A model generated the notes under the pieces. The model ran no database searches, had not been told where the DNA came from, and saw only the letters and a list, made by a program, of their open reading frames with translations. This document shows positions 1,906 to 42,291 of a DNA stretch of 64,000 nucleotides, one piece after another. Source of the stretch: a virus (lineage: Duplodnaviria; Caudoviricetes); IMG/VR virus record IMGVR_UViG_3300020036_009553, positions 32,001-96,000 of that record; one strand, given 5' to 3'. Every line of letters starts with the position of its first letter. Within the stretch, counting starts at the first letter, position 1. Made by a program: the position numbers and the translations under genes.

Positions 1906-2073
1906 ATGAAACCATACGGACATTGCAGGAGAGACAAACTGGAGTGCAAATTTGGTTGTTGCACTACCAAGAGCGGAAAGAAAATGTGTTGCCGCAAGCT
2001 GGTTGATCGTGCAAACAAAAAGGCAGCGCGTCAATTCGCGAAAAAATTGATCAAACTTGTGTTTGGAGAATAG
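1906..2073 (+). CDS. Small basic Cys-rich hypothetical protein
   Basis: Own promoter (~1847) and GAGGAG RBS. Confidence 0.65.
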   Translation: MKPYGHCRRDKLECKFGCCTTKSGKKMCCRKLVDRANKKAARQFAKKLIKLVFGE

Positions 2074-2543
2074 CATGTATCGGAGAAACAGTCAGCAATT
2101 TGCCATTGGAACTCGGGTGGAGTTTTTTACGAGCCCCCACACCAAGGATTTTTCATGTGGCACAATAGTTGGCCGTGCCGATAACTATATGTTGATTGTA
2201 CAATTGGATACCCCCCTGACAGATGGATCAACGGCCATTGTACTCGACACGAAGATGGTTACGATCATTTAATCAATGAACGAGCCTAAAAAACAAATCA
2301 ATAACCTTGGTGAAGTGAGCATTTACATTCGTGCTAGGAGGGAAGAACTCACCCAGCAATGGGAGAAGACCAAGGAGACCAGCATACTGTCAAGGATGCA
2401 CGAACTGCAGAAACTTTACAATTTGATTAACTCGAAAGATTCATAATTGAATCTTTCACAGAAGTGTATTTTTTAACGGGCGGTTAGCTCAGTTGGTTAG
2501 TAGCAGTGGACTCTCACCGATGCCTTGAATTATCGAGGTGTCT

Positions 2544-2591
2544 TGTCCCTCATAAAGCATAAATAAGTAAAAGGTGCTTTATGAGGGGACA
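2544..2591 (+). promoter_or_regulatory. RBS-sequestering hairpin with late promoter CATAAATA (2558-2565) at its loop
   Basis: TGTCCCTCATAAAGCA pairs with TGCTTTATGAGGGGACA, covering the SD of ATG 2595; same layout as T4 homing endonuclease control. Confidence 0.75.
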
Positions 2592-2594
2592 GAA

Positions 2595-3056
2595 ATGAGT
2601 GTTTTGTATTCAGTAGATATGTTAAGAGATGCTGTAAGTGAGTCTTTGTGTTATAGTGATGTAACCAGAAAATTGGGAGTGTCTTTGTGCACATTCAATT
2701 TTAAACGCATCCAGAAGTTGTGTGATGAATATGGTATATCAGTTGACCATTTTGACGTAAAGAAGGCGTTTCGAAGAAACAAAAAGGAATACGGCAAGAA
2801 TGAGATTTTTGTAGAAAACAGTAGAATATCACGAAGTCGGTTGAGACCAGCGTGTATCAGGCTAGGAATTTACCCTGGAAAATGCGGAGAGTGTGGTATT
2901 GAAGAAGTTTGGAATGGCAAACCTCTAATCATTGAGGTTGACCACATAAACGGAAACAGTACTGATAATCGACTAGAGAATTTACGGTTTTTATGCCCTA
3001 ATTGTCATTCCCAGACTCACACATATCGAAGGCGGATTTCCCGCCGTACTGAATAA
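2595..3056 (+). CDS. HNH homing endonuclease inserted in the tRNA
   Basis: CGECG...EVDHINGNSTDNRLENLRFLCPNCHSQT HNH/zinc motif; stop codon TAA 3054-3056 is the start of the tRNA 3' half. Confidence 0.92.
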   Translation: MSVLYSVDMLRDAVSESLCYSDVTRKLGVSLCTFNFKRIQKLCDEYGISVDHFDVKKAFRRNKKEYGKNEIFVENSRISRSRLRPACIRLGIYPGKCGECGIEEVWNGKPLIIEVDHINGNSTDNRLENLRFLCPNCHSQTHTYRRRISRRTE

Positions 3057-3298
3057 TCCATTGGTCACTGGTTCGAGTCCAGTACCGCCCACCATATTCA
3101 CACGGAGGTAACGATGAGCAACAAACAAATCAAACAAGATCGAGATCGATATCTACAACTGTTGGCCGAAGTGGCTGAGTTGTTGAACGGCATTCAACCA
3201 CCGTTGACCTCTGCACAAAAACAGGGTGTTCTTGACGGAACTCTCAAGCTGAAAACTGATGCCGATGGTGGGATCACTGTTGAATAGGGCATAATTTA

Positions 3299-4528
3299 AT
3301 GAAAAGTAATCTGTATATTCCCAAAACCATCACGGTTGGGTTTCGAGAACGCAGTGACACGTTCACAGGAAAGCTCGGTTATGTAATTTATACCGACCAC
3401 AAAGGCGTGTTGCGGAAACAGGCATCGTGGAATTCGTGGAGAGATTTGAAGATTGCAACAATTCAACTCGATAATACTCCACAACCTGGATTCTGCCTGA
3501 ACAAAGGCGTCCAACGGGATGGATATTGGGGTAATGGACGCTCTGTCATTCGTGTCTGGGATCCTCGGGATTTTGAGTTTGAGATTTCTGTTGATAACTT
3601 GATCGGCATTTTAATGCATGCCGATGTCTCAAAGCGGGATATCACCGAACCTTGTGTGTTTGCTTGGAATGGGACAGAGTTGATCTTGCTGCCAACAAAT
3701 TCTGTGGAATATCAACAGTCGGTGGAACATACCGCAAAACAATGTGTCACATTTTCCAGTAGGTCTCTGGTGGCTGGATATACCTATTCTGTTCGCGCGG
3801 ATAATCTTTCTGTTGTGTACCTGGGATACCTCCAACGATGGGAGGCTGTCAACCACACATATAGTTACCGGCGTGATACGGATGTCCCGCCGTCGCTGAA
3901 ACAACTCAAAAAACGTAAAGGACACGTGTTCATCGATCCATCCACGAAACGAATTTACGTCAAAGACCCATCAGCGTTTATCTCGGGCGTCGAGGTCGAA
4001 GAATGTCACAACAAGTTTGCAGATTTATTGCAAGCATATTACGGTGACATTAACAGCCAACCGTGGATCGGTTGCAGCATTCTACCCGCTACTGAGGGGT
4101 ATCGTACTAGGCTATGGGGAAGAATTAACAATACAGATTTCGTCGAATTTGCTTTTACTGATGATTTTATCGGGTATGATAATAACCGTAGACCACCTAA
4201 GGTAGAAGTGACGAGGTTTGGTCGGTATGATCCGTCTGTTCCTGGTTTTACATTTTCTAGTACTGACCAACAGCCTAATTATTGGACAGCTCGTGGAAAG
4301 ACTGTCCCAAGGTTAGCTGGGTTGGCTATCGATCAACCGGAAGTAATTGCTTTGGGAGGGCTTATTCTAAGTCATCTGGTTGCAAACCCATCCGATAAAA
4401 CGTCTTTTACGTGGCAACAAAAGAAAATTCACATGAAGAAGATATTCGCTGAGATGTACACAAATTCCAACATTGGAGAGCTTTCTGTCGTATTGTCTGA
4501 TGGGAAAATCGCCAAAACTGAAATATAA
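3299..4528 (+). CDS. Hypothetical phage protein (409 aa)
   Basis: Long ORF in gene-dense context. Confidence 0.8.
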   Translation: MKSNLYIPKTITVGFRERSDTFTGKLGYVIYTDHKGVLRKQASWNSWRDLKIATIQLDNTPQPGFCLNKGVQRDGYWGNGRSVIRVWDPRDFEFEISVDNLIGILMHADVSKRDITEPCVFAWNGTELILLPTNSVEYQQSVEHTAKQCVTFSSRSLVAGYTYSVRADNLSVVYLGYLQRWEAVNHTYSYRRDTDVPPSLKQLKKRKGHVFIDPSTKRIYVKDPSAFISGVEVEECHNKFADLLQAYYGDINSQPWIGCSILPATEGYRTRLWGRINNTDFVEFAFTDDFIGYDNNRRPPKVEVTRFGRYDPSVPGFTFSSTDQQPNYWTARGKTVPRLAGLAIDQPEVIALGGLILSHLVANPSDKTSFTWQQKKIHMKKIFAEMYTNSNIGELSVVLSDGKIAKTEI

Positions 4529-4542
4529 AAGGAATTGATAAC

Positions 4543-4986
4543 ATGACAACACAAATTGATAGTAAAATCACAGCGATGTTCGCCAAGGTGAGCGAACGCA
4601 AAGCAAAGTGTAAAGAACTCCGGCAGCAAATCTCTGCACCATGGAAAACAAACTGTTCGTTCATCCCACTGGGGGCTACTGTTCCAGTGAATATTCAAAC
4701 AGCTTCGGCTGAAATGGTGTACTCTATTGCTACAACGTTGGGAGTATTGATCGTTGGAGCTACGTGTGCAAGTGAGAATTTTGGTTTGACCATCACCGTA
4801 AAAATCCAAGGGTATGTCCCAACTGATTGGTTTACTGATCTGAAGAAGCGGCTTGCTGCGATTAACATCCGCGACGAAGAGAAGCAACTGGCTGACATTG
4901 AAGAACGACTGACAAAAGTTCTCTCTCCGGAAGAACAACGTCGGTTGGAGGTTGAAATGCTGGCCAAAGAAATTGGGCTTGAGTAA
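4543..4986 (+). CDS. Hypothetical coiled-coil protein
   Basis: AAGGA RBS, operonic with the preceding ORF. Confidence 0.75.
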   Translation: MTTQIDSKITAMFAKVSERKAKCKELRQQISAPWKTNCSFIPLGATVPVNIQTASAEMVYSIATTLGVLIVGATCASENFGLTITVKIQGYVPTDWFTDLKKRLAAINIRDEEKQLADIEERLTKVLSPEEQRRLEVEMLAKEIGLE

Positions 4987-5060
4987 TTATTGTTGACAAT
5001 GAGTGGAAAATTAGAGATAATACTATTTTAACTTTCCACTAATGACAAGGATATATCATT

Positions 5061-5507
5061 ATGTCCCAACCGGATGATATTTTTGACCAGGCTGCCAAGC
5101 GAAGTGTTCGTGATGTGGTGGAGGCAGCGATTAAACTCGCGTTGACTACCACTCCACGGGAGGTGTTGGACATTATGCTGATCGCCTGTGCACTTCAGGC
5201 AGGGCTCAAGTATTGCGTAGCTAATGCTAATCGCCGCGAAGTTTCTCAATCTATGAACTGGTATTCGAACTGTCACGATTTTGTGAACACTACAGCAGTC
5301 GGCCATCCAGATTTGGAAGTTGCTTTGAAAGATGCCATTCGTGGGGTTGATCATTATGTCGAGATAGTGGATTCTCTCAAAGACAAGTATGGAATTAATT
5401 TGATGGATTATTTCATGTTTAGCCGTAACAGCCATCTGGACCAGCGCCCCACGTACGCAGTGCTGGAAACGGACGCGAGGAGACGCCTGGGAATAATAAA
5501 TCTGTAG
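5061..5507 (+). CDS. Hypothetical protein
   Basis: Own promoter (~4993) and AAGGA RBS. Confidence 0.7.
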   Translation: MSQPDDIFDQAAKRSVRDVVEAAIKLALTTTPREVLDIMLIACALQAGLKYCVANANRREVSQSMNWYSNCHDFVNTTAVGHPDLEVALKDAIRGVDHYVEIVDSLKDKYGINLMDYFMFSRNSHLDQRPTYAVLETDARRRLGIINL

Positions 5508-5515
5508 TGCCGCCC

Positions 5516-6154
5516 GCCCGGGTGGTGAAATCGGTAGACACAAGGGACTCAACAGGGTCACTAGCGAAAAATGAATTGGTAGCCAGAAAACGTTGATATA
5601 TTATGATCAGCTAATCCAGGCGTAACAAGTCAAGGGAAACCCGCTAGTAGTATTTCCGTAAATTCGGCGAACGCTAAAACAAGCAGACGGCAAGGCATCT
5701 CGGTAAGAGCAAGGGACGAGGAAATAGTAACACTCGTGGTTAAATCTACTTATTGAGATGGTTAAAACTAGAATGCTTGTTATGCCAACGCCGAGCCGAG
5801 CCTGTACTTTGAACGGTGGACCGTTTAACTAAGTACCGTAGTGAGGATGCAACTGGCTTACTTAAATGTAAACAATGATAGTATCTGTGCCAGTAGAACC
5901 ATAAAGGTAAGTATAGGAAGGTGTAGAGACTAGAGACGGAATGCCTGGGCGGTAGGCTTACGGGATGCTGATATAATCCCGCCGAGTAACCGTATGGTGA
6001 TAGCATAGTCCAGACCACGAACAATCGCTCACGATTAGAAAACGAGTGAGTAATAGCTAAAGCAACGGGTAGCTAGATTGGCGGCGAAAACCGAAGTGGT
6101 AAGTAAAATCCCTCGCCGTAAGGCATGCGGGTTCGATTCCCGCCCCGGGCACCA
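5516..6154 (+). tRNA. tRNA-Leu(TAA) with group I intron (exons 5516-5549 and 6104-6154)
   Basis: GCCCGGG/CCCGGGC-A-CCA acceptor, AGGGA-CT|TAA-AA-TCCCT anticodon arm after splicing, long variable arm GCC-GTAA-GGC. Confidence 0.88.
5550..6103 (+). ncRNA. Group I self-splicing intron, no convincing ORF
   Basis: 5' exon ends in U; P1 GACUC-AACA-GGGUC with U.G; P AAATTCGGCGAA (~5660), Q AACGCCGAGC (~5787), R GTAGAGACTA (~5922), S CATAGTCC (~6004); terminal G6103. Confidence 0.88.
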
Positions 6155-7089: not shown

Positions 7090-9348
7090 ATGATCACGAA
7101 TCAATTCCAAGCTCCTGTTGAACGTTCCGGTGTTGCGGCTGAAAGTGTATTTCACATCAATGCCAGTGCAAAGGCATTTGAGATCCTTTCTTCCACATTG
7201 TACTCGGACAAAATTCAAGCGATCGTTCGGGAGCTAGCGTGCAATGCCTACGATGCTCACGTCGCTGCAGGAAATCAAGATACGCCGATTGAGATCCATT
7301 TGCCATCACCATTGGATGCCACATTTTACGTTAAGGATTTCGGCACGGGGTTATCCCGCGAACAAGTTGTTGGGCATACTGATGCCACGGGCCGTTTTAT
7401 TCCTGGGATCTATCAGACGTTTTTTGATAGCGACAAGACTGACAGTAATAATTTTATTGGTGCTCTCGGGCTTGGGTCAAAGTCACCATTTTCGTACACC
7501 AGTCAATTTACTGTGGAATCGCGGTTCAATGGAACATGCTACGTCTTCCTGGCGTTTAAGAATGAGGAAGGATTGCCATCAATTGTTGAAATCTCTCATG
7601 CTCCAACAATTGACCCTAATGGTCTGACAGTATCGTTGTCGGTTCGTTCGGAGGACATTGGTAAGTTTTTTAACGCTGCAAAGTTGGCGTTGATGTATTT
7701 CAATCCAGCTCCAACGGTTCTCGGGCGGTGGGATTTTGGATCTGCTCACAGGTTGGTTCACACCGTGTCAGGCACAAATTGGAAGATTCGTGAGGCGGAT
7801 TATTATGCCAATATGATTGGCCCTCGTGTTGTGCAGGGGTTTGTATCATATCCAGTTCTGACCCACATGTTATCTCAACATGTTGCTTTATCTGTAGGCG
7901 CCGCCGGATTGTTGAGCACAGATGTTGATTTGTACGTACCAATTGGAGAGATTGATGTTGCTCCCTCTCGTGAAGCGTTGTCTTATAACAAGAAAACATG
8001 CGTTAGTTTGATTACAGCTCTGGAACAGGCCGCCGATGAGATGCGGGCAGGGTTTCAGAGTTCATTCGACAAGTGCGCCACCAGGTGGGAGATGCTTTGT
8101 CTTCTCGAGAAGCTGACGAAGAGTTCTTCGCAGAAGTTCAATGCAGTATTTGCTTCAATGCATAAAAGCATCCCATTCACCTGGAACGGGGATGAAATTG
8201 CGGATGTAGTATCCATGGACCTGAGTGAGTGCTATCTCATGGGCATCCAGCGTGTATCACGATCAGTTAATCGTCGTGGTATTATGGCCCGCAAAGTGAA
8301 CATGTCGGACGTATGGGGGAAGGGTCGGGGAAGTTCAGATACTGCTGAGCTGCCATGTACTAATCCAAGCAAGATTAAGTTTTTGGTGGAGCGGACTGGG
8401 AAGGTGCTCGGGCCTGTGTTCTTTCAAGCATACACAGATACCTTTGGAGCTACGGAAGATCATCTGTTGTATGTGATTCGGTCCATTCCTGGTTGTGGGT
8501 ATTCTGCGGCTGAAACAAAGATGATTCTCGAGCAATTTGGGAATCCTCCCGTTGAGTATGCTGATGAGGTGATGGCAAAGGTACAAGTCGTTAAAAAACA
8601 ATACGTTAAGAAAGATAAAGAAGTTAAAATGTTTTGGACGGGGTTCCGTACCAAGCGCGTTCGTGGGAGGATGGTTGAAAATAATTCATACTCCCGTCTC
8701 ACATGGGACAATGCTACTTTTGATCCTTCGGAAGGTGGGTATTACGTAGTTGTTGATCGTTTTACGCCAATGAACGGTGATCAGCCAGTAGCCAACCTCA
8801 AACAATTCATTGGGGCTGCCCAGACGTTACATTATATCCCAGAAGGGGTTACGATATGGGGGCTAACGAAGAATGATGCTCGTGAAATCGAAGACGATGA
8901 GCAATGGATTAATGTGGTTACCGACACAGCTCTCCAATTCGAAACTGATAATGAACAAGGAGAGTTGACGAACAAGGTCAATGTAACAACCACACTGAAT
9001 CAAGTTCATCGTACCATGGGATGGGCATATTCGCGCATTGTCGGTGTGTGGACGCCTTCTATATCCCAAACATGTTGCGATGGAGAATTTAAGACATATA
9101 TTGAAAAAATCTATCAACTCATTCAAACTGCTGATGAGCCATGTGAAATAAAAGCAATCCGGTGCTTGGCTACTCAGTTTGGTGATTGTCTTCAGCAGAC
9201 GCCTGAGGCGATAGCCGCTATCACTTCTCAATGGGAAGCCATCCTCAAGAAATACCCAATGTTACAATTTATTGATTGTTCATACACTCATTCATCCGAG
9301 TTAGTTGCAATTATACTCGAATATATTGGGTTGGTGGAACGGAAGTAG
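7090..9348 (+). CDS. rIIA: rIIA-like protein (N-terminal GHKL/Hsp90-like ATPase)
   Basis: KAFEILSSTLYSDKIQAIVRELACNAYDAH, DFGTGLS, IGALGLGSKSPFSYT, PSREALSY motifs. Confidence 0.92.
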   Translation: MITNQFQAPVERSGVAAESVFHINASAKAFEILSSTLYSDKIQAIVRELACNAYDAHVAAGNQDTPIEIHLPSPLDATFYVKDFGTGLSREQVVGHTDATGRFIPGIYQTFFDSDKTDSNNFIGALGLGSKSPFSYTSQFTVESRFNGTCYVFLAFKNEEGLPSIVEISHAPTIDPNGLTVSLSVRSEDIGKFFNAAKLALMYFNPAPTVLGRWDFGSAHRLVHTVSGTNWKIREADYYANMIGPRVVQGFVSYPVLTHMLSQHVALSVGAAGLLSTDVDLYVPIGEIDVAPSREALSYNKKTCVSLITALEQAADEMRAGFQSSFDKCATRWEMLCLLEKLTKSSSQKFNAVFASMHKSIPFTWNGDEIADVVSMDLSECYLMGIQRVSRSVNRRGIMARKVNMSDVWGKGRGSSDTAELPCTNPSKIKFLVERTGKVLGPVFFQAYTDTFGATEDHLLYVIRSIPGCGYSAAETKMILEQFGNPPVEYADEVMAKVQVVKKQYVKKDKEVKMFWTGFRTKRVRGRMVENNSYSRLTWDNATFDPSEGGYYVVVDRFTPMNGDQPVANLKQFIGAAQTLHYIPEGVTIWGLTKNDAREIEDDEQWINVVTDTALQFETDNEQGELTNKVNVTTTLNQVHRTMGWAYSRIVGVWTPSISQTCCDGEFKTYIEKIYQLIQTADEPCEIKAIRCLATQFGDCLQQTPEAIAAITSQWEAILKKYPMLQFIDCSYTHSSELVAIILEYIGLVERK

Positions 9349-9411
9349 TTGACATTTGTAAAACACGTGGGTATAATGTTGTTATAGTATTCCACCACAA
9401 AGGAAAAAACG

Positions 9412-10368
9412 ATGATTTACATCAAAACACAAACAGGATTTGCAGGGCTGGCGGATGGTAAGCCATTTACGGTAGCGGACACACATCCGTGCTTTGGTGA
9501 AATCGAGCAAGCGATTCGTAATAACAATGAGCAATTAGTTCATCAGTTGATTAATCGATCAACCATGCTGGCTACTAACCCACACGTTGTGCACCAGCGA
9601 GTAGAAGTTGATCCAGTGGCAGGGGTGATCTATGTGGATGGTCTCCCGATTGAGAACACCCTCGTCAGCAGAGTAATTTCAATGGCGTTGGAAGGGTATC
9701 AAATTGAATCAATGGTTGCATTCATTGACAATTTGTACCAGAATCCATCCAAGAAAACAATCGATCGTATCTATGCTTGGTTGGAAGCTGGTGAAATGCC
9801 GATTACCGACGATGGGCATTTCATTGCTTATAAGCGAGTTAACAACGACCTGACCTCATTCTACGATAACACGACGAAACATGTCGTCGGTGAAGTGACA
9901 GCAATGGAACGATATCGTTGCGACGACCGAACAGAAGAGACGTGCTCCACTGGGCTGCACTTTTGCTCTTATGGATATCTCTCAAAATATTATTCGGGCA
10001 TGGGCCGAATTTTGGTGCTCAAAATCAATCCAGCGGACGTTGTTGCTATTCCCGACGATTATGGAACATCAAAAGGTCGGGCTTGTAAGTATTTGGTCGT
10101 TGGGGAATTGACCATTGAACAAACATCTGAAGTTGAAACTGTTAATGTTCTGTCAATGCCTGTAATGATTATTGATGAGCAAGACACTATTCCCGAGGAA
10201 CCAACTACCAGTCCTACATATGAACAAGGATATGTGAGGGGATATGCTGTCGCTCGCCAGCAGAAGTTTATCCCTGACATGCCGGATGATGCCAACAGTG
10301 ATTATATTGAAGGGCATTCAGCAGGGTATAGTGACGGCATCTACCACAAAAAACGGATGTATCGGTAG
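9412..10368 (+). CDS. rIIB: rIIB-like protein
   Basis: ITDDGHFIAYKRV, CSTGLHFCS, KINPADVVAIPDDY..KGRACKY; adjacent to rIIA. Confidence 0.92.
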   Translation: MIYIKTQTGFAGLADGKPFTVADTHPCFGEIEQAIRNNNEQLVHQLINRSTMLATNPHVVHQRVEVDPVAGVIYVDGLPIENTLVSRVISMALEGYQIESMVAFIDNLYQNPSKKTIDRIYAWLEAGEMPITDDGHFIAYKRVNNDLTSFYDNTTKHVVGEVTAMERYRCDDRTEETCSTGLHFCSYGYLSKYYSGMGRILVLKINPADVVAIPDDYGTSKGRACKYLVVGELTIEQTSEVETVNVLSMPVMIIDEQDTIPEEPTTSPTYEQGYVRGYAVARQQKFIPDMPDDANSDYIEGHSAGYSDGIYHKKRMYR

Positions 10369-39746: not shown

Positions 39747-40481
39747 ATGAGAATCATTTCTAAATTCAAAGATTATTACGATTATATTGCCCATTTATAT
39801 GGTAGTGATCCGATGATCGTGTATCATCGTAAAGATCTCGACAAAGGGGTAGTAAAAGGTAATGTGTGTTATTATGACACGATCAACATCACCAAAAAGT
39901 CATCGTTTGGACATTTTACATTTAGCGCGCAAGGCAGGTTGTCACCCGATTCAGCAGATTATAAGTGGAGAATGTATGATTTAATGTATCTTTGTATTAA
40001 TGGATCATCATATCTCTGCCTGCGGGATACATCAATACCAAAGAGTTCATGGCAATATTATGAAAATATCCCTGGAGCTAGTGAACATGTTACCATCCGG
40101 TATTTTAATCCAAAAAAATGGTATTGGGTTAATACCAAATTAACAATCGGTCAATTAAATGGAACGGTTGTGTTTCCTGAATTGGTAGAAATTTGTAGGG
40201 AATTACAAGCTCCAGTATTTTTATTCAAGGTTAACCATCTCATTGATGATAAGGTAGAGTTTGTTATCGAAGGAAAGGTGCCAGTTCTATCTGAATTGGG
40301 GATGGCTAAAATATATCCTCCAACGCAATTGTACCAAGACCTATCATATTTCATGGCAAACACAATAAGACCATCTCCTGATACCACCCCTCCTGTCAAA
40401 TTAACAGATACTCAAAGAATATCTCAGCGTGGATTTGATTTAGTTACATCTTTTAGAGGACCTCGTAATGGCAAAACGTAA
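39747..40481 (+). CDS. Hypothetical phage protein
   Basis: MRIISKFKDYYD N-terminus, GFDL.TSFR C-terminus. Confidence 0.8.
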   Translation: MRIISKFKDYYDYIAHLYGSDPMIVYHRKDLDKGVVKGNVCYYDTINITKKSSFGHFTFSAQGRLSPDSADYKWRMYDLMYLCINGSSYLCLRDTSIPKSSWQYYENIPGASEHVTIRYFNPKKWYWVNTKLTIGQLNGTVVFPELVEICRELQAPVFLFKVNHLIDDKVEFVIEGKVPVLSELGMAKIYPPTQLYQDLSYFMANTIRPSPDTTPPVKLTDTQRISQRGFDLVTSFRGPRNGKT

Positions 40482-41337
40482 GAATCTTGTACAACCATTT
40501 TCATTTGCGGACGCGAAGACAAAAGCTCTTCGTGATTTTGAATTTGATTATGATCGTACTCCATTTGAGCTGCAACCCCTTCCCACTCGTAGATTTGAGG
40601 TAGGAGAAAGCATTATTGTTGGGCGGTTAGATCAATGTGTTGTTGAGGAAGTGCTGTTCGATGGAATGGCGTATCTATATTCTGCGATGTGGAAGGCACG
40701 GGAAACTGAGGAACCATCGCGTGTGTGTCGCGTATCGTGGTGGTTTGAAATATTCAAAAAAGTGAATAATGATGGGGTTCCTTGCTTAATGACTCCATCA
40801 TCTCGTCACCATCCTACCTCGGGAGTACTTGGATCTATCATGCATTTTTTGCTGTGTGGTGGATTGGTGTGTGATCCTACGTACCAACGAGAATACGTAT
40901 GGTCAGAAGCAGATAAAGATTCGTTAATTGAATCAATTTTTGATCGTGTTCCAATTGGATCAGTGTTGTTGGTTCGTCATGCTGGGTATAATCATTCGGG
41001 TGATCGCACTCTCCGAAAATATACAACCCTTGCTGGCATTGCAGTCACTGTTGAGGCAGGTAATGATTACACTATTTCAATCGTGGACGGTCAGCAACGA
41101 TTGACGACGATTGTCGATTTCGTGATGGATAAACGTTCATTCAAAGGGCGATACTTTTCACAATTGAACATTAGAGACATTCGTGATTTTGATAATACTC
41201 CAATCACATATTGGCTGATCAAGGAAGAAGAAACAACCCAAAAAGAAATAATTAAATTGTTCTTGCAGTGTAACCGTGGGGTTTCTCAAACACCCGCACA
41301 TTTGGAAAAAATTCGTGCACTATACGAAGAAATGTAA
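40468..41337 (+). CDS. DUF262 / ParB-like domain protein
   Basis: PTYQREYVWS...LIESI...PIG, IVDGQQRLTT, F...N.G. Confidence 0.85.
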   Translation: MAKRKNLVQPFSFADAKTKALRDFEFDYDRTPFELQPLPTRRFEVGESIIVGRLDQCVVEEVLFDGMAYLYSAMWKARETEEPSRVCRVSWWFEIFKKVNNDGVPCLMTPSSRHHPTSGVLGSIMHFLLCGGLVCDPTYQREYVWSEADKDSLIESIFDRVPIGSVLLVRHAGYNHSGDRTLRKYTTLAGIAVTVEAGNDYTISIVDGQQRLTTIVDFVMDKRSFKGRYFSQLNIRDIRDFDNTPITYWLIKEEETTQKEIIKLFLQCNRGVSQTPAHLEKIRALYEEM

Positions 41338-41658: not shown

Positions 41659-42291
41659 ATGATTAAGTATCCACGTACAGTCCACCTTCCATCATCTCCT
41701 GGTGCCACAAATGATGATAAAATCATTCGTAACATGGATGCGTTTATTGGTGAAGAGATTGTCATTACGGAAAAGGTAGACGGGGAGAATACTACCATAT
41801 ATTCCAATGGGCGCTGTCATGCCAGAAGCATTGATTCTCGGTCTCATGAAAGTAGAAATTGGATTAAACAATTTGCTGCTTCCATTGCACATAACATTCC
41901 TGAAGATTGGAGGATCTGTGGAGAGAATTTGTATGCTCAACATACCCTGCCGTACAATGATCTATTGAGTTACTTTTATGGGTTCTCTGTTTGGGATGAA
42001 AAGAACGACTGTATCAGTTGGGATAATACAACGTATGTATTTGGAGAAGTTGGTGTTATCGCAGTTCCAGTCCTATATCGCGGACCTTTTCAAATGTCAT
42101 TGGTGACAGAGATAATTAATGAATTAGATTTAACCACCCAAGAAGGGATAGTCATGCGAGTATCCCGAAGGTTCCCCTTTAGCGAATTTAGCAAGAGGGT
42201 AGCAAAATGGGTACGTAAAGATCACGTAATGACGGATGTACATTGGATGCACAAAGAAGTCACACCAAATAAATTAAGAAACACACTTTAA
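41659..42291 (+). CDS. ATP-dependent RNA ligase family protein
   Basis: KYPRT.HLP.SPG, TEKVDGEN (KxDG), ICGE, EGIVMR, KWVR. Confidence 0.88.
   Translation: MIKYPRTVHLPSSPGATNDDKIIRNMDAFIGEEIVITEKVDGENTTIYSNGRCHARSIDSRSHESRNWIKQFAASIAHNIPEDWRICGENLYAQHTLPYNDLLSYFYGFSVWDEKNDCISWDNTTYVFGEVGVIAVPVLYRGPFQMSLVTEIINELDLTTQEGIVMRVSRRFPFSEFSKRVAKWVRKDHVMTDVHWMHKEVTPNKLRNTL

What the first reader, a model, noticed from the sequence alone, without database searches (positions are those of the whole stretch)
2478..3094. tRNA split in the anticodon loop by an HNH gene with no ribozyme core
Seen: both tRNA halves are intact, including CCA, but are separated by 539 bp. The insert contains only a small hairpin (2515-2540), a late-promoter/RBS-occluding hairpin (2544-2591) and an HNH ORF whose stop codon is the first three bases of the 3' half. 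I find no group I P/Q/R/S elements or group II domain V, unlike the intron at 5550, and no clear bulge-helix-bulge. The junction register is ambiguous: CT|T gives Lys(CTT), C|AT gives Ile2/Met(CAT), |AAT gives Ile. Known: bacterial tRNA introns are normally self-splicing. Inference: either a protein-dependent splice/repair route (an RNA ligase is encoded at 41659), a tRNA that works as two halves, or a recent disruptive insertion. The intact halves argue for retained function. This is the best candidate for a new system.
Basis: partly seen in the sequence, partly recalled or inferred. Interest (0 to 1): 0.88.

Follow-up and report, generated by a model that had tools for sequence, protein, structure and literature searches.

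The report
Ribozyme-less homing endonuclease splitting phage tRNA
A selfish DNA-cutting-enzyme gene with no self-splicing RNA sits exactly inside the anticodon of a phage tRNA(CAU) gene, most likely silencing a dispensable tRNA; cultured Acinetobacter phages carry the same arrangement with an unrelated nuclease, so rejoining of the halves can be tested at the bench.

Summary
ARAGORN with introns allowed finds one tRNA at 2478-3094, split by 539 bp. The insert holds two leader hairpins and a 153-aa HNH ORF (2595-3056).

No ribozyme was found. Rfam gives nothing, but it also misses the window's real group I intron at 5550-6103. I therefore built two covariance models from the group I cores that follow this HNH family's ORFs in relatives. 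They hit those relatives (E 1e-46 to 1e-10) and intron 5550, but nothing in 2478-3094.

Uninterrupted relatives fix the anticodon as CAU, with the insertion between nt 34 and 35.

The HNH groups with free-standing endonucleases that lie directly upstream of tRNA-Met(CAU), not with intron-borne ones.

Seven cultured Acinetobacter phage isolates (AM101, AB-Navy97, AC4 and others) carry the same architecture at the same site of a closely similar tRNA-Met, with an unrelated PD-(D/E)XK-like nuclease. Near-identical phages keep the tRNA intact.

Best reading: a DNA-level homing insertion that interrupts a dispensable tRNA. Protein-dependent splicing is not excluded (about 0.12).

This scan has noted the same phenomenon before, on more than 80 other genomes.

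The parts
2478..2513 (+). 5' half of tRNA(CAU): acceptor 5' strand, D-arm, anticodon stem 5' strand, C32-U33-C34
   Evidence: ARAGORN -i. blastn matches nt 8-36 at 96.6% to tRNA-Met of Acinetobacter phages. An uninterrupted relative lies in run X1. The half has one extra T in the D-arm (TTAG-T-AGC), which gives C13.U22.
2514..3052 (+). 539-bp insert: ribozyme-less homing-endonuclease cassette
   Evidence: Boundaries come from comparison with uninterrupted alleles. No Rfam hit at E<=10. No hit of custom group I models R1 and R2 with filters off.
2519..2542 (+). Leader hairpin 1 (10 bp, loop AUUA); function unknown
   Evidence: strand folding: -12.6 kcal/mol, z -4.66. Not seen in the leaders of L001 or L002.
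2543..2592 (+). Leader hairpin 2, with the SD (GAGGGG, 2583-2588) in its 3' arm and CATAAATAA (2558-2566) in its loop; a T4-style 'late promoter inside an RBS-sequestering hairpin' (inferred)
   Evidence: strand folding: -24 kcal/mol, z -7.27. The same architecture occurs in L002, L072 and L125. AM101 (L166) also has TATAAATA within a leader hairpin just upstream of the ORF. The promoter motif is not enriched genome-wide.
2595..3056 (+). HNH homing endonuclease ORF (153 aa); stop TAA = tRNA nt 36-38
   Evidence: Pfam HNH and HNH_3; phrog_10822. Clade with free-standing L001 and L002, SH-aLRT 96. Relatives at 50-79% identity.
3031..3045 (+). Small GC hairpin inside the ORF tail, 7 nt before the 3' junction; weak
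   Evidence: strand folding: -9.6 kcal/mol, z -2.0. Absent in L001, L002 and AM101.
3053..3094 (+). 3' half of tRNA(CAU): A35-U36-A37-A38, anticodon stem 3' strand, variable loop, T-arm, acceptor 3' strand, A73, CCA
   Evidence: ARAGORN -i. 88-90.5% identity to tRNA-Met/Ile(CAT) of Cobetia, Aeromonas and Acinetobacter phages.
5516..6154 (+). Internal control: tRNA-Leu(UAA) with an ORF-less 554-nt group I intron (5550-6103) between U33 and U34
   Evidence: ARAGORN -i. Model R1 hits 5868-6104 (E 1.2e-5) and 5659-5831 (E 3.4e-3). Rfam finds nothing.
41659..42291 (+). RNA ligase (nucleotidyltransferase domain only, 210 aa); context for the rival reading, not shown to be linked
   Evidence: PF09414, E 1.6e-32.

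Best explanation
The insert is a mobile homing-endonuclease cassette: two leader hairpins plus an HNH gene, with no ribozyme. It sits at the DNA level exactly between nucleotides 34 and 35 of a phage tRNA(CAU) (Met or Ile2) gene.

The enzyme belongs to a large family that lives on phage tRNA genes. Most members are wedged between tRNAs. Some ride in group I introns of tRNA anticodon loops. This one and its nearest relatives are tied to tRNA-Met(CAU).

Inferred mechanism:
1. The nuclease cuts the uninterrupted tRNA(CAU) gene of a co-infecting relative, in or near the anticodon arm.
2. Repair copies the cassette, with exact flanks, from the carrier genome.
3. The insertion destroys the enzyme's own target, so the carrier is immune.
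4. The ORF is probably expressed late, from a promoter inside an RBS-sequestering hairpin, and ends on the UAA formed by tRNA nt 36-38.

Because nothing in the insert can splice itself, the tRNA is most probably not rejoined and the gene is silenced. This would be tolerated because the tRNA is dispensable.

Shown: the anatomy, the absence of a ribozyme, the family context, and the presence/absence polymorphism in the analogous Acinetobacter-phage case. Inferred: the cleavage target, the homing itself, late expression, and loss of tRNA function.
For: 1. No ribozyme. Rfam finds nothing at E<=10. Model R1 was built from ORF-less tRNA introns (40 bp, 21 covarying). It finds the cores downstream of this HNH family's ORFs in relatives at E 2e-46 to 7e-10 and the window's own intron at 5868-6104. 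It finds nothing in 2478-3094 with filters off. Model R2, for the second core type, also finds nothing. Only 81 nt precede the ORF and 0 nt follow it.

2. Family context. In 149 distinct loci, 81 HNH genes lie next to a tRNA and 17 lie inside split tRNAs with 690-1000-nt introns. In 42 loci the ORF stop lies within -20 to +10 nt of the next tRNA's 5' end.

3. Tree. The window's HNH forms a clade (SH-aLRT 96) with L001 and L002. Both are free-standing, lie directly upstream of tRNA-Met(CAT) and overlap it by 10 and 15 nt. Most intron-borne members fall in two other clades.

4. An independent twin in cultured phages. In Acinetobacter phages AM101, AB-Navy97, Apostate, DLP2, MD-2021a and AC4, a closely similar tRNA-Met is split at the same place by 666-667 bp (identical anticodon arm; 88% identity over the 3' half and 96.6% over nt 8-36). 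The insert is a 40-nt leader with TATAAATA within a leader hairpin, plus a 209-aa PD-(D/E)XK-like/NUMOD3 ORF whose stop is again U36-A37-A38. AB-Navy1, DLP1, Stupor, AbTZA1 and others have the intact tRNA at the same place. Free-standing relatives of that nuclease in PhaxI and Kuja overlap tRNA-Met by 10 nt, as L001 does.

5. A signature of homing. AC4 has 8 private changes in the 78 nt of the halves but only 4 in the 630 nt of the ORF. This means the same cassette sits in a different tRNA allele.

6. Signs of damage near these elements. The window's D-arm has a 1-nt insertion. fHyAci03 has a tRNA-Pyl/tRNA-Met chimera, and IME13 has a 'tRNA-Pseudo-CAT'.

7. No tRNA splicing endonuclease or RtcB in the 128-kb record.
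Against: - Both halves are complete and the junction loses or gains no base.
- Among the closest HNH proteins (50-79% identity), 22 of 42 end in Glu and 12 end in Thr-Glu, despite tails of different length. Among more distant ones, only 4 of 77 end in Glu. This suggests the last bases of the insert (..GA before A35-UAA) are conserved, and that the clade has stayed at this kind of junction for a long time. A purely selfish, tRNA-killing element does not obviously predict that.
- AC4's T-stem differences are fully compensated. Co-conversion explains this as well.
- The record is only about 57% complete, so missing enzymes prove little.
- No RNA data were available.
Confidence: 0.62

Rival explanations
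1. The insert is a true intron removed by proteins. A host or phage endoribonuclease would cut at both junctions of the folded pre-tRNA, and an RNA ligase (the phage's PF09414 enzyme or a host one) would reseal the anticodon loop, giving a working tRNA(CAU).
For: - The architecture recurs at the same site with two unrelated nucleases.
- Glu-stop at the C-terminus is conserved in 22 of 42 close homologues against 4 of 77 distant ones. This points to constraint on the 3' junction.
- Both halves are complete, with an encoded CCA.
- The phage encodes an RNA ligase.
- No terminator is predicted inside the insert, so one precursor could carry both halves.
Against: - No splicing endonuclease (PF01974) or RtcB in the record.
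- The junction bases differ between the window (..CUGA|A) and AM101 (..UUAG|A, or shifted by 1-2 nt), so there is no shared splice-site rule.
- No bulge-helix-bulge is evident in the fold.
- Intact and split alleles coexist in near-identical viable phages, so no function need be preserved.
- The window's 5' half has an indel in the D-arm.
I did not check that myself.
Confidence: 0.13
2. The insert is the relic of a group I intron. An HNH-bearing intron once sat in this anticodon loop, and a deletion removed the ribozyme core, leaving the ORF abutting the 3' exon. The tRNA is now dead.
For: - The same HNH family is carried by group I introns in phage tRNA anticodon loops, with cores 190-500 nt downstream of the ORF.
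- The position 34|35 matches the classic tRNA-Leu(UAA) intron site seen in L135 and L052.
- The same phage has a group I intron in tRNA-Leu.
Against: - The nearest relatives are free-standing, not intron-borne.
- No remnant of either core type is present.
- The ORF tail is full length compared with homologues.
- A deletion ending exactly at the 3' splice site is improbable.
- The unrelated AM101 nuclease shows the same core-less layout.
- The 5' exon ends in C, not U.
Confidence: 0.12
3. Cryptic RNA catalysis. Either a ribozyme overlaps the ORF, or the excised tRNA-Leu intron (whose guide GGUC pairs with GACU, a sequence present in both tRNAs) acts in trans. Splicing would be at U33|...G3051|A34 and would give anticodon AAU.
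For: - In that register the 5' exon ends in U and the insert ends in G, as in group I introns.
- Intron 5550 also sits at 33|34.
- Both 5' exons end in GGACU.
Against: - No core signal under three kinds of model.
- The HNH motif occupies the last 170 nt.
- P1 pairing is only 3 bp plus U.U.
- Homologous uninterrupted tRNAs have CAU, not AAU.
- AM101 has no U...G boundaries in any register.
Confidence: 0.04
4. The two halves work as a non-covalent two-piece tRNA.
For: The halves are complementary and complete.
Against: The break lies inside the anticodon, between nt 34 and 35. From established knowledge, cuts in the anticodon loop are what anticodon nucleases use to inactivate tRNA. In addition, 539 nt would still have to be trimmed off precisely.
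Confidence: 0.02

Closest known systems
Free-standing homing endonucleases of T4-like phages and intronless homing (for example SegB in the T4 tRNA gene cluster; PMC2330249; review PMC3984707)
   Same: A small nuclease gene with its own late-type expression signals, lodged in a phage tRNA region. It spreads by double-strand-break repair with co-conversion of flanks and shows a presence/absence polymorphism among close relatives.
   Different: SegB and its kind lie between genes. Here the cassette lies inside the tRNA, in the anticodon itself, so the host gene is interrupted with nothing to splice it out. SegB is GIY-YIG; this enzyme is HNH.
Group I introns of tRNA anticodon loops carrying endonuclease genes (the Synechocystis tRNA-fMet intron with I-Ssp6803I, cited in PMC3984707; and the HNH-bearing phage tRNA introns seen here in L023, L028, L052, L056, L073, L079)
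   Same: The same target (a tRNA anticodon loop), the same HNH family in the phage cases, and the same homing logic.
   Different: Those have a 190-500-nt ribozyme core downstream of the ORF. The window has none.
Split tRNA-Met of Acinetobacter phages AM101, AB-Navy97, Apostate, DLP2, MD-2021a and AC4 (GenBank records; the ORF is annotated only as 'endodeoxyribonuclease I' or hypothetical, and the split is not annotated)
   Same: A closely similar tRNA with an identical anticodon arm (88% over the 3' half, 96.6% over nt 8-36), the same insertion site, a hairpin leader with a TATAAATA-like motif, an ORF stop formed by U36-A37-A38, and no room for a ribozyme.
   Different: An unrelated nuclease (PD-(D/E)XK-like with NUMOD3, 209 aa), a 666-bp insert, and a 2-nt ambiguity (AT) at the junction.
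Genes split by homing-endonuclease insertion that keep function (Aeh1 nrdA/mobE, from my own knowledge; fractured genes with split inteins, PMC2677866)
   Same: A homing endonuclease gene inserted inside a host gene without a conventional intron.
   Different: Those are protein genes whose pieces reassemble as proteins. No comparable rescue is known for a tRNA cut in its anticodon.
'Enigmatic' tRNA introns of Lak megaphages (Devoto et al. 2019, PMC6784885)
   Same: Inserts in phage tRNA genes that Rfam does not classify, and that are identical across samples where present.
   Different: Those were not described as endonuclease cassettes, and I did not examine their sequences here.

Membership tests
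Group I intron | Conserved catalytic core (P3-P9 with a G-binding P7) | tested here: not met
   Rfam at E<=10 finds nothing. Custom models R1 and R2 detect the cores in relatives and the window's own intron at 5550, but find nothing in 2478-3094 with filters off.
Group I intron | 5' exon ends in U paired with G of an internal guide (P1); intron ends in G | tested here: not met
   In the CAU register fixed by homologues, the exon ends in C2513 and the insert ends in A3052. The alternative U33/G3051 register gives AAU and only a 3-bp P1 with U.U.
Group I intron | Self-splicing in vitro | not testable with these tools
   Needs transcription of 2478-3094 and incubation with GTP and Mg.
Group II intron | Domain V/VI RNA and a reverse-transcriptase ORF | tested here: not met
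   No Rfam hit at E<=10. The ORF is a 153-aa HNH protein only.
Archaeal/eukaryal protein-spliced tRNA intron | Bulge-helix-bulge at the junctions, and a splicing endonuclease plus ligase | tested here: inconclusive
   No PF01974 or RtcB in the record, but the record is about 57% complete and the host is unknown. No BHB is visible in the MFE fold. The site is 34|35, not 37|38.
HNH homing endonuclease (free-standing type) | Intact HNH/zinc-finger catalytic motif | tested here: met
   Pfam HNH E 6.6e-7 and HNH_3 E 5.5e-6. CxxC, DH..N..N and CPNCH are invariant in the alignment of 17 relatives.
HNH homing endonuclease (free-standing type) | Presence/absence polymorphism of the gene at one site among related genomes | tested here: inconclusive
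   For this HNH there is only one uninterrupted relative of the tRNA, on a 302-nt contig of run X1 with a different flank. For the analogous AM101 cassette the polymorphism is clear.
HNH homing endonuclease (free-standing type) | Cleaves the insert-less allele and is inherited preferentially in mixed infection | not testable with these tools
   Needs a cleavage assay and co-infection crosses.
tRNA(CAU) (elongator Met or Ile2) | Cloverleaf with a 7-nt CUCAUAA loop once the halves are joined | tested here: met
   ARAGORN -i gives a cloverleaf. Joining at C2513|A3053 reproduces the anticodon arm of the homologues exactly. Caveat: the D-stem has C13.U22 because of a 1-nt insertion. Met and Ile2 were not told apart.

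The most novel reading that the evidence does not exclude
Ribozyme-free endonuclease inserts in phage tRNA anticodon loops are genuine introns. The folded pre-tRNA would be cut at both junctions by a protein and resealed by an RNA ligase. That would be a protein-dependent tRNA splicing pathway in bacteria or their viruses, with the conserved ..GA|A-UAA end of this HNH clade as part of the signal.
Probability: 0.12. Interest if true: 0.9.

Novelty: new variant of a known kind. Interest (0 to 1): 0.5.

Why it matters
Homing endonucleases are thought to survive inside essential or useful genes only when an intron or intein makes them phenotypically silent. Here, and in cultured therapeutic Acinetobacter phages, endonucleases of two unrelated families sit bare inside the anticodon of closely similar tRNAs.

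There are two possibilities. Either selfish nucleases routinely sacrifice phage tRNAs, which bears on why phage tRNA sets are so variable and on how mobile introns arise from free-standing endonucleases. Or there is an undescribed way to rejoin such tRNAs.

The Acinetobacter phages make this directly testable by RT-PCR or tRNA-seq.

A practical point follows as well. Standard tRNA finders and Rfam miss both these split genes and real group I introns in phage tRNAs, so phage tRNA counts are biased.

Tried and rejected
- **Rfam.** Gathering and E<=10 thresholds on the window and on 14 relatives gave no intron hit anywhere, even for obvious group I introns. A negative Rfam result alone is therefore worthless here.
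- **megablast and blastn of 2000-6000 against phages.** No relative of this phage; only short HNH and tRNA matches.
- **Neighbour gene (409 aa) in viral contigs.** Three distant loci, with no tRNA nearby.
- **Exact 3'-half pattern in viral contigs.** Nothing.
- **Sequencing runs.** No RNA holder is listed. The one run labelled RNA-Seq looks like DNA and covers only tRNA-like parts. The joints seen are mostly unrelated tRNAs of other organisms.
- **Looking for P0014 in viral contigs and P0026 in genome contigs.** Their own contigs are not held.
- **Pattern GAATAA + T-arm in viral contigs.** 118 matches, none a relative of this HNH. One AM101-like nuclease in a split tRNA (L411) and one rearranged tRNA-Gly locus (L358) turned up.
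- **T4-type late promoter.** TATAAATA is not enriched in the genome (6 found, 7.4 expected). Only 9 of 124 family leaders carry it. 'Late promoter' therefore stays an inference.
- **A conserved stem between the insert's end and the anticodon arm, as earlier notes describe for other families.** I found only a 5-bp CAGUG/UACUG possibility by eye, with no comparative support.
- **PDB sequence search.** Nothing useful for the HNH. Weak T7 endonuclease I similarity for the AM101 ORF.
- **Selection test on the Acinetobacter split alleles.** They are 98-100% identical, which is too close to tell selection from recency. AC4's compensated T-stem is explained by homing into another allele.
Full report
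**1. The observation**

The window is bases 32001-96000 of a 128,415-bp IMG/VR phage record that CheckV rates about 57% complete. The phage has rIIA/rIIB (7090-10368) and no close relative among GenBank phages.

Plain ARAGORN and Rfam see only tRNA-Thr and tRNA-Pro. With introns allowed, ARAGORN finds two more tRNAs:
- a tRNA at 2478-3094 with a 539-nt insert;
- tRNA-Leu(UAA) at 5516-6154 with a 554-nt insert.

The first is the finding. Its halves join into a cloverleaf with a perfect 7-bp acceptor stem, a canonical T-arm, A73 and an encoded CCA. The one blemish is a C13.U22 mismatch, caused by an extra T in the D-arm compared with every close homologue.

The insert holds two strong hairpins and one ORF:
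- hairpin 2519-2542 (-12.6 kcal/mol, z -4.7);
- hairpin 2543-2592 (-24 kcal/mol, z -7.3), with the Shine-Dalgarno sequence buried in its 3' arm;
- ORF 2595-3056, a 153-aa HNH protein (Pfam HNH 6.6e-7; phrog_10822 2.4e-42).

**2. The register**

Uninterrupted relatives settle it.
- A 302-nt contig in an activated-sludge run carries the same acceptor stem and an unbroken anticodon arm reading GTGGA-CTCATAA-TCCAT. That run also holds this phage at 100% identity.
- The best GenBank matches of both halves are tRNA-Met/Ile(CAT) genes of T4-like Acinetobacter, Aeromonas and Cobetia phages, with the same arm.

Only one join reproduces this arm: C2513 (nt 34) to A3053 (nt 35). The insert is therefore 2514-3052, and the ORF's TAA is U36-A37-A38.

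**3. Is there a ribozyme?**

Rfam finds nothing at E<=10. But it also finds nothing in the window's second insert, nor in 14 relatives whose inserts show textbook group I R and S elements by eye. The Rfam negative therefore carries no weight.

I built two covariance models instead.
- R1 comes from four ORF-less, roughly 200-nt tRNA introns found in the related loci (40 pairs, 21 with compensatory changes).
- R2 comes from a second core type that follows the longer HNH ORFs.

R1 hits the stretch downstream of the HNH ORF in relatives at E 2e-46 to 7e-10. It hits the window's tRNA-Leu intron at 5868-6104 (E 1.2e-5) and at 5659-5831 (E 3.4e-3).

With filters off and E up to 10, neither model reports anything on the + strand within 2478-3094 beyond a 1.1-bit noise hit.

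Only 81 nt precede the ORF and none follow it. The last 170 nt encode the HNH motif. The insert has no group I core of either kind used by its own family, no group II signal, and no evident bulge-helix-bulge.

**4. What the HNH family does elsewhere**

Scans of viral and metagenome contigs gave 149 distinct loci.
- In 81 loci the gene lies beside a tRNA.
- In 42 loci its stop codon falls within -20 to +10 nt of the next tRNA's 5' end. In 12 it falls at exactly -10, so the tRNA's U8-A9-G10 serves as TAG.
- In 17 loci the gene lies inside a split tRNA with a 690-1000-nt intron that has a group I core after the ORF.

This is a homing-endonuclease family specialised on phage tRNA genes, with both free-standing and intron-borne members.

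In a maximum-likelihood tree, the window's protein groups (SH-aLRT 96) with L001 and L002. Both are free-standing, lie immediately upstream of tRNA-Met(CAT), and overlap it by 10 and 15 nt. Most of the intron-borne proteins fall in two other clades.

L002's leader has the same hairpin as the window, with CATAAATAA in the loop and the SD in the 3' arm. This matches the T4 way of delaying endonuclease expression (my own knowledge of the I-TevI and Seg literature; review PMC3984707). However, the promoter motif is not enriched in this genome.

**5. An independent twin in cultured phages**

The halves' blastn matches showed that six named Acinetobacter Lazarusvirus phages (seven records; AM101, AB-Navy97, Apostate, DLP2, MD-2021a with two assemblies, AC4) carry a closely similar tRNA-Met split by 666-667 bp. 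In many near-identical relatives (AB-Navy1, DLP1, DP45, Stupor, Abraxas, Konradin, AbTZA1, Maestro and others) it is intact at the same place, between a suppressor tRNA and tRNA-Cys.

ARAGORN -i calls the AM101 gene tRNA-Met(cat) with a 666-nt insert. The layout is the window's:
- the 5' half;
- a 40-nt leader with TATAAATA within a leader hairpin;
- an ORF whose stop is U36-A37-A38;
- the 3' half.

No intron family matches.

The nuclease is unrelated to the window's. It is 209 aa, with a NUMOD3 motif and a PD-(D/E)XK-like domain weakly similar to T7 endonuclease I. Its more distant relatives in PhaxI and Kuja are free-standing and overlap tRNA-Met by 10 nt.

Two unrelated nuclease families thus show the same two configurations on tRNA-Met(CAU): just upstream of it, and inside its anticodon.

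AC4 carries the same cassette (4 private changes in 630 nt) in a different tRNA allele. That allele has 8 private changes in 78 nt, including two compensated T-stem pairs. This is the pattern expected from homing with a short co-conversion tract.

Rearranged or pseudo tRNA-Met genes occur nearby in fHyAci03 and IME13.

I found no mention of the split in the phage-therapy genome paper that describes AB-Navy97 and AC4 (PMC9247103), nor in five literature searches.

**6. Weighing function**

For silencing:
- There is nothing to splice the RNA.
- Intact and split alleles coexist in viable, near-identical phages.
- The window's D-arm carries an indel.
- The window and AM101 share no junction nucleotides.
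- The record has no splicing endonuclease or RtcB.

Against silencing:
- The junction is exact and the halves are whole.
- One new observation stands out. A large protein search found closer relatives of the HNH (50-79% identity). Of these, 22 of 42 end in Glu and 12 end in Thr-Glu, although their basic tails differ in length. Only 4 of 77 more distant proteins end in Glu.

In the window the last codon is G3051-A3052-A35, followed by U36-A37-A38. The signature therefore suggests that this clade habitually ends on ..GA|A-UAA. That means it stays in tRNA(NAU) anticodon loops and keeps its last two bases. This could reflect an RNA-level signal. It could equally reflect descent with constraint on the protein's end.

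**7. Verdict**

The insert is a ribozyme-less homing-endonuclease cassette in the anticodon of a tRNA(CAU) gene.

The most likely consequence is a silenced, dispensable tRNA (0.62). A group I relic as its origin (0.12) and protein-dependent splicing (0.13) remain open. Cryptic ribozymes (0.04) and two-piece tRNAs (0.02) are unlikely.

Earlier notes of this scan describe the same class of insert in more than 80 other genomes. One of them records that a later check priced the protein-splicing claim at 14/100. I did not verify that check, and my own estimate was reached separately.

What this report adds:
- the HNH case on tRNA(CAU);
- custom-model proof that the core is absent;
- the link to free-standing relatives upstream of tRNA-Met;
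- the convergent twin in cultured Acinetobacter phages, which makes the question testable at the bench;
- the Glu-stop signature.

Noticed in passing
window 5516-6154: tRNA-Leu(UAA) carries an ORF-less 554-nt group I intron (5550-6103). It is inserted between U33 and U34, one base 5' of the classic U34|A35 site seen in L135 and L052. Large extra segments split the R1 match into 5659-5831 and 5868-6104. Rfam misses it entirely.
   Followed up: partly
L001-L163 (e.g. L001 3447-3456; L002 1487-1501; L180 1233-1242; L181 1236-1245): Endonuclease ORFs in phage tRNA clusters very often run into the next tRNA and stop on its U8-A9-G10 (TAG). Among the HNH loci, 12 of 149 overlap by exactly 10 nt and 42 stop within -20 to +10. 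The unrelated PhaxI and Kuja nucleases also overlap by 10 nt. RNase P cleavage at the tRNA's 5' end would then remove the mRNA's stop codon. This is a possible coupling of tRNA processing and endonuclease expression.
   Followed up: partly
L022, L023, L026-L028, L031, L050, L052, L056, L060, L067, L071, L073, L079, L093, L122, L161: Phage tRNA genes (Leu and others) carry HNH-bearing group I introns of two core types. None reaches Rfam's gathering score, but custom models find them at E down to 1e-46. Phage tRNA introns look much more common than annotation suggests.
   Followed up: partly
L022 2953-3858, L027, L071: In three loci the long HNH ORF stays open right through about 150 nt of the group I core, because the stop present in L026 (GCT TAA) is absent. 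ORF and ribozyme overlap there.
   Followed up: no
L175 (Acinetobacter phage fHyAci03) 121-188; L176 (KARL-1) 151-225: fHyAci03 has a chimera of the suppressor tRNA's 5' part and the 3' part of tRNA-Met. KARL-1 has a tRNA-Met allele with a different anticodon stem (CAGA/TCTG), possibly a nuclease-resistant target variant.
   Followed up: no
window 40468-41337 and 41659-42291: A GmrSD_N-domain protein (PF03235, E 8.8e-20) lies two genes upstream of the 210-aa RNA ligase (PF09414), which has a nucleotidyltransferase domain only.
   Followed up: no
L358 6990-7700 (also L385, L406): A tRNA-Gly-like gene appears to be split by an insert that holds a complete second tRNA-Gly(UCC) plus a different HNH ORF. 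A 14-nt repeat (AATAAATTATGC-like) lies at both joints. It looks like a recombination product of tandem tRNAs around an endonuclease.
   Followed up: no
L045, L075, L076, L022 and others: ARAGORN calls several phage tRNAs with A at the wobble position (Pro-AGG, Val-AAC, Leu-AAG, Ile-AAT, Asn-ATT), which is unusual for bacteria. They may be real or may be miscalls.
   Followed up: no
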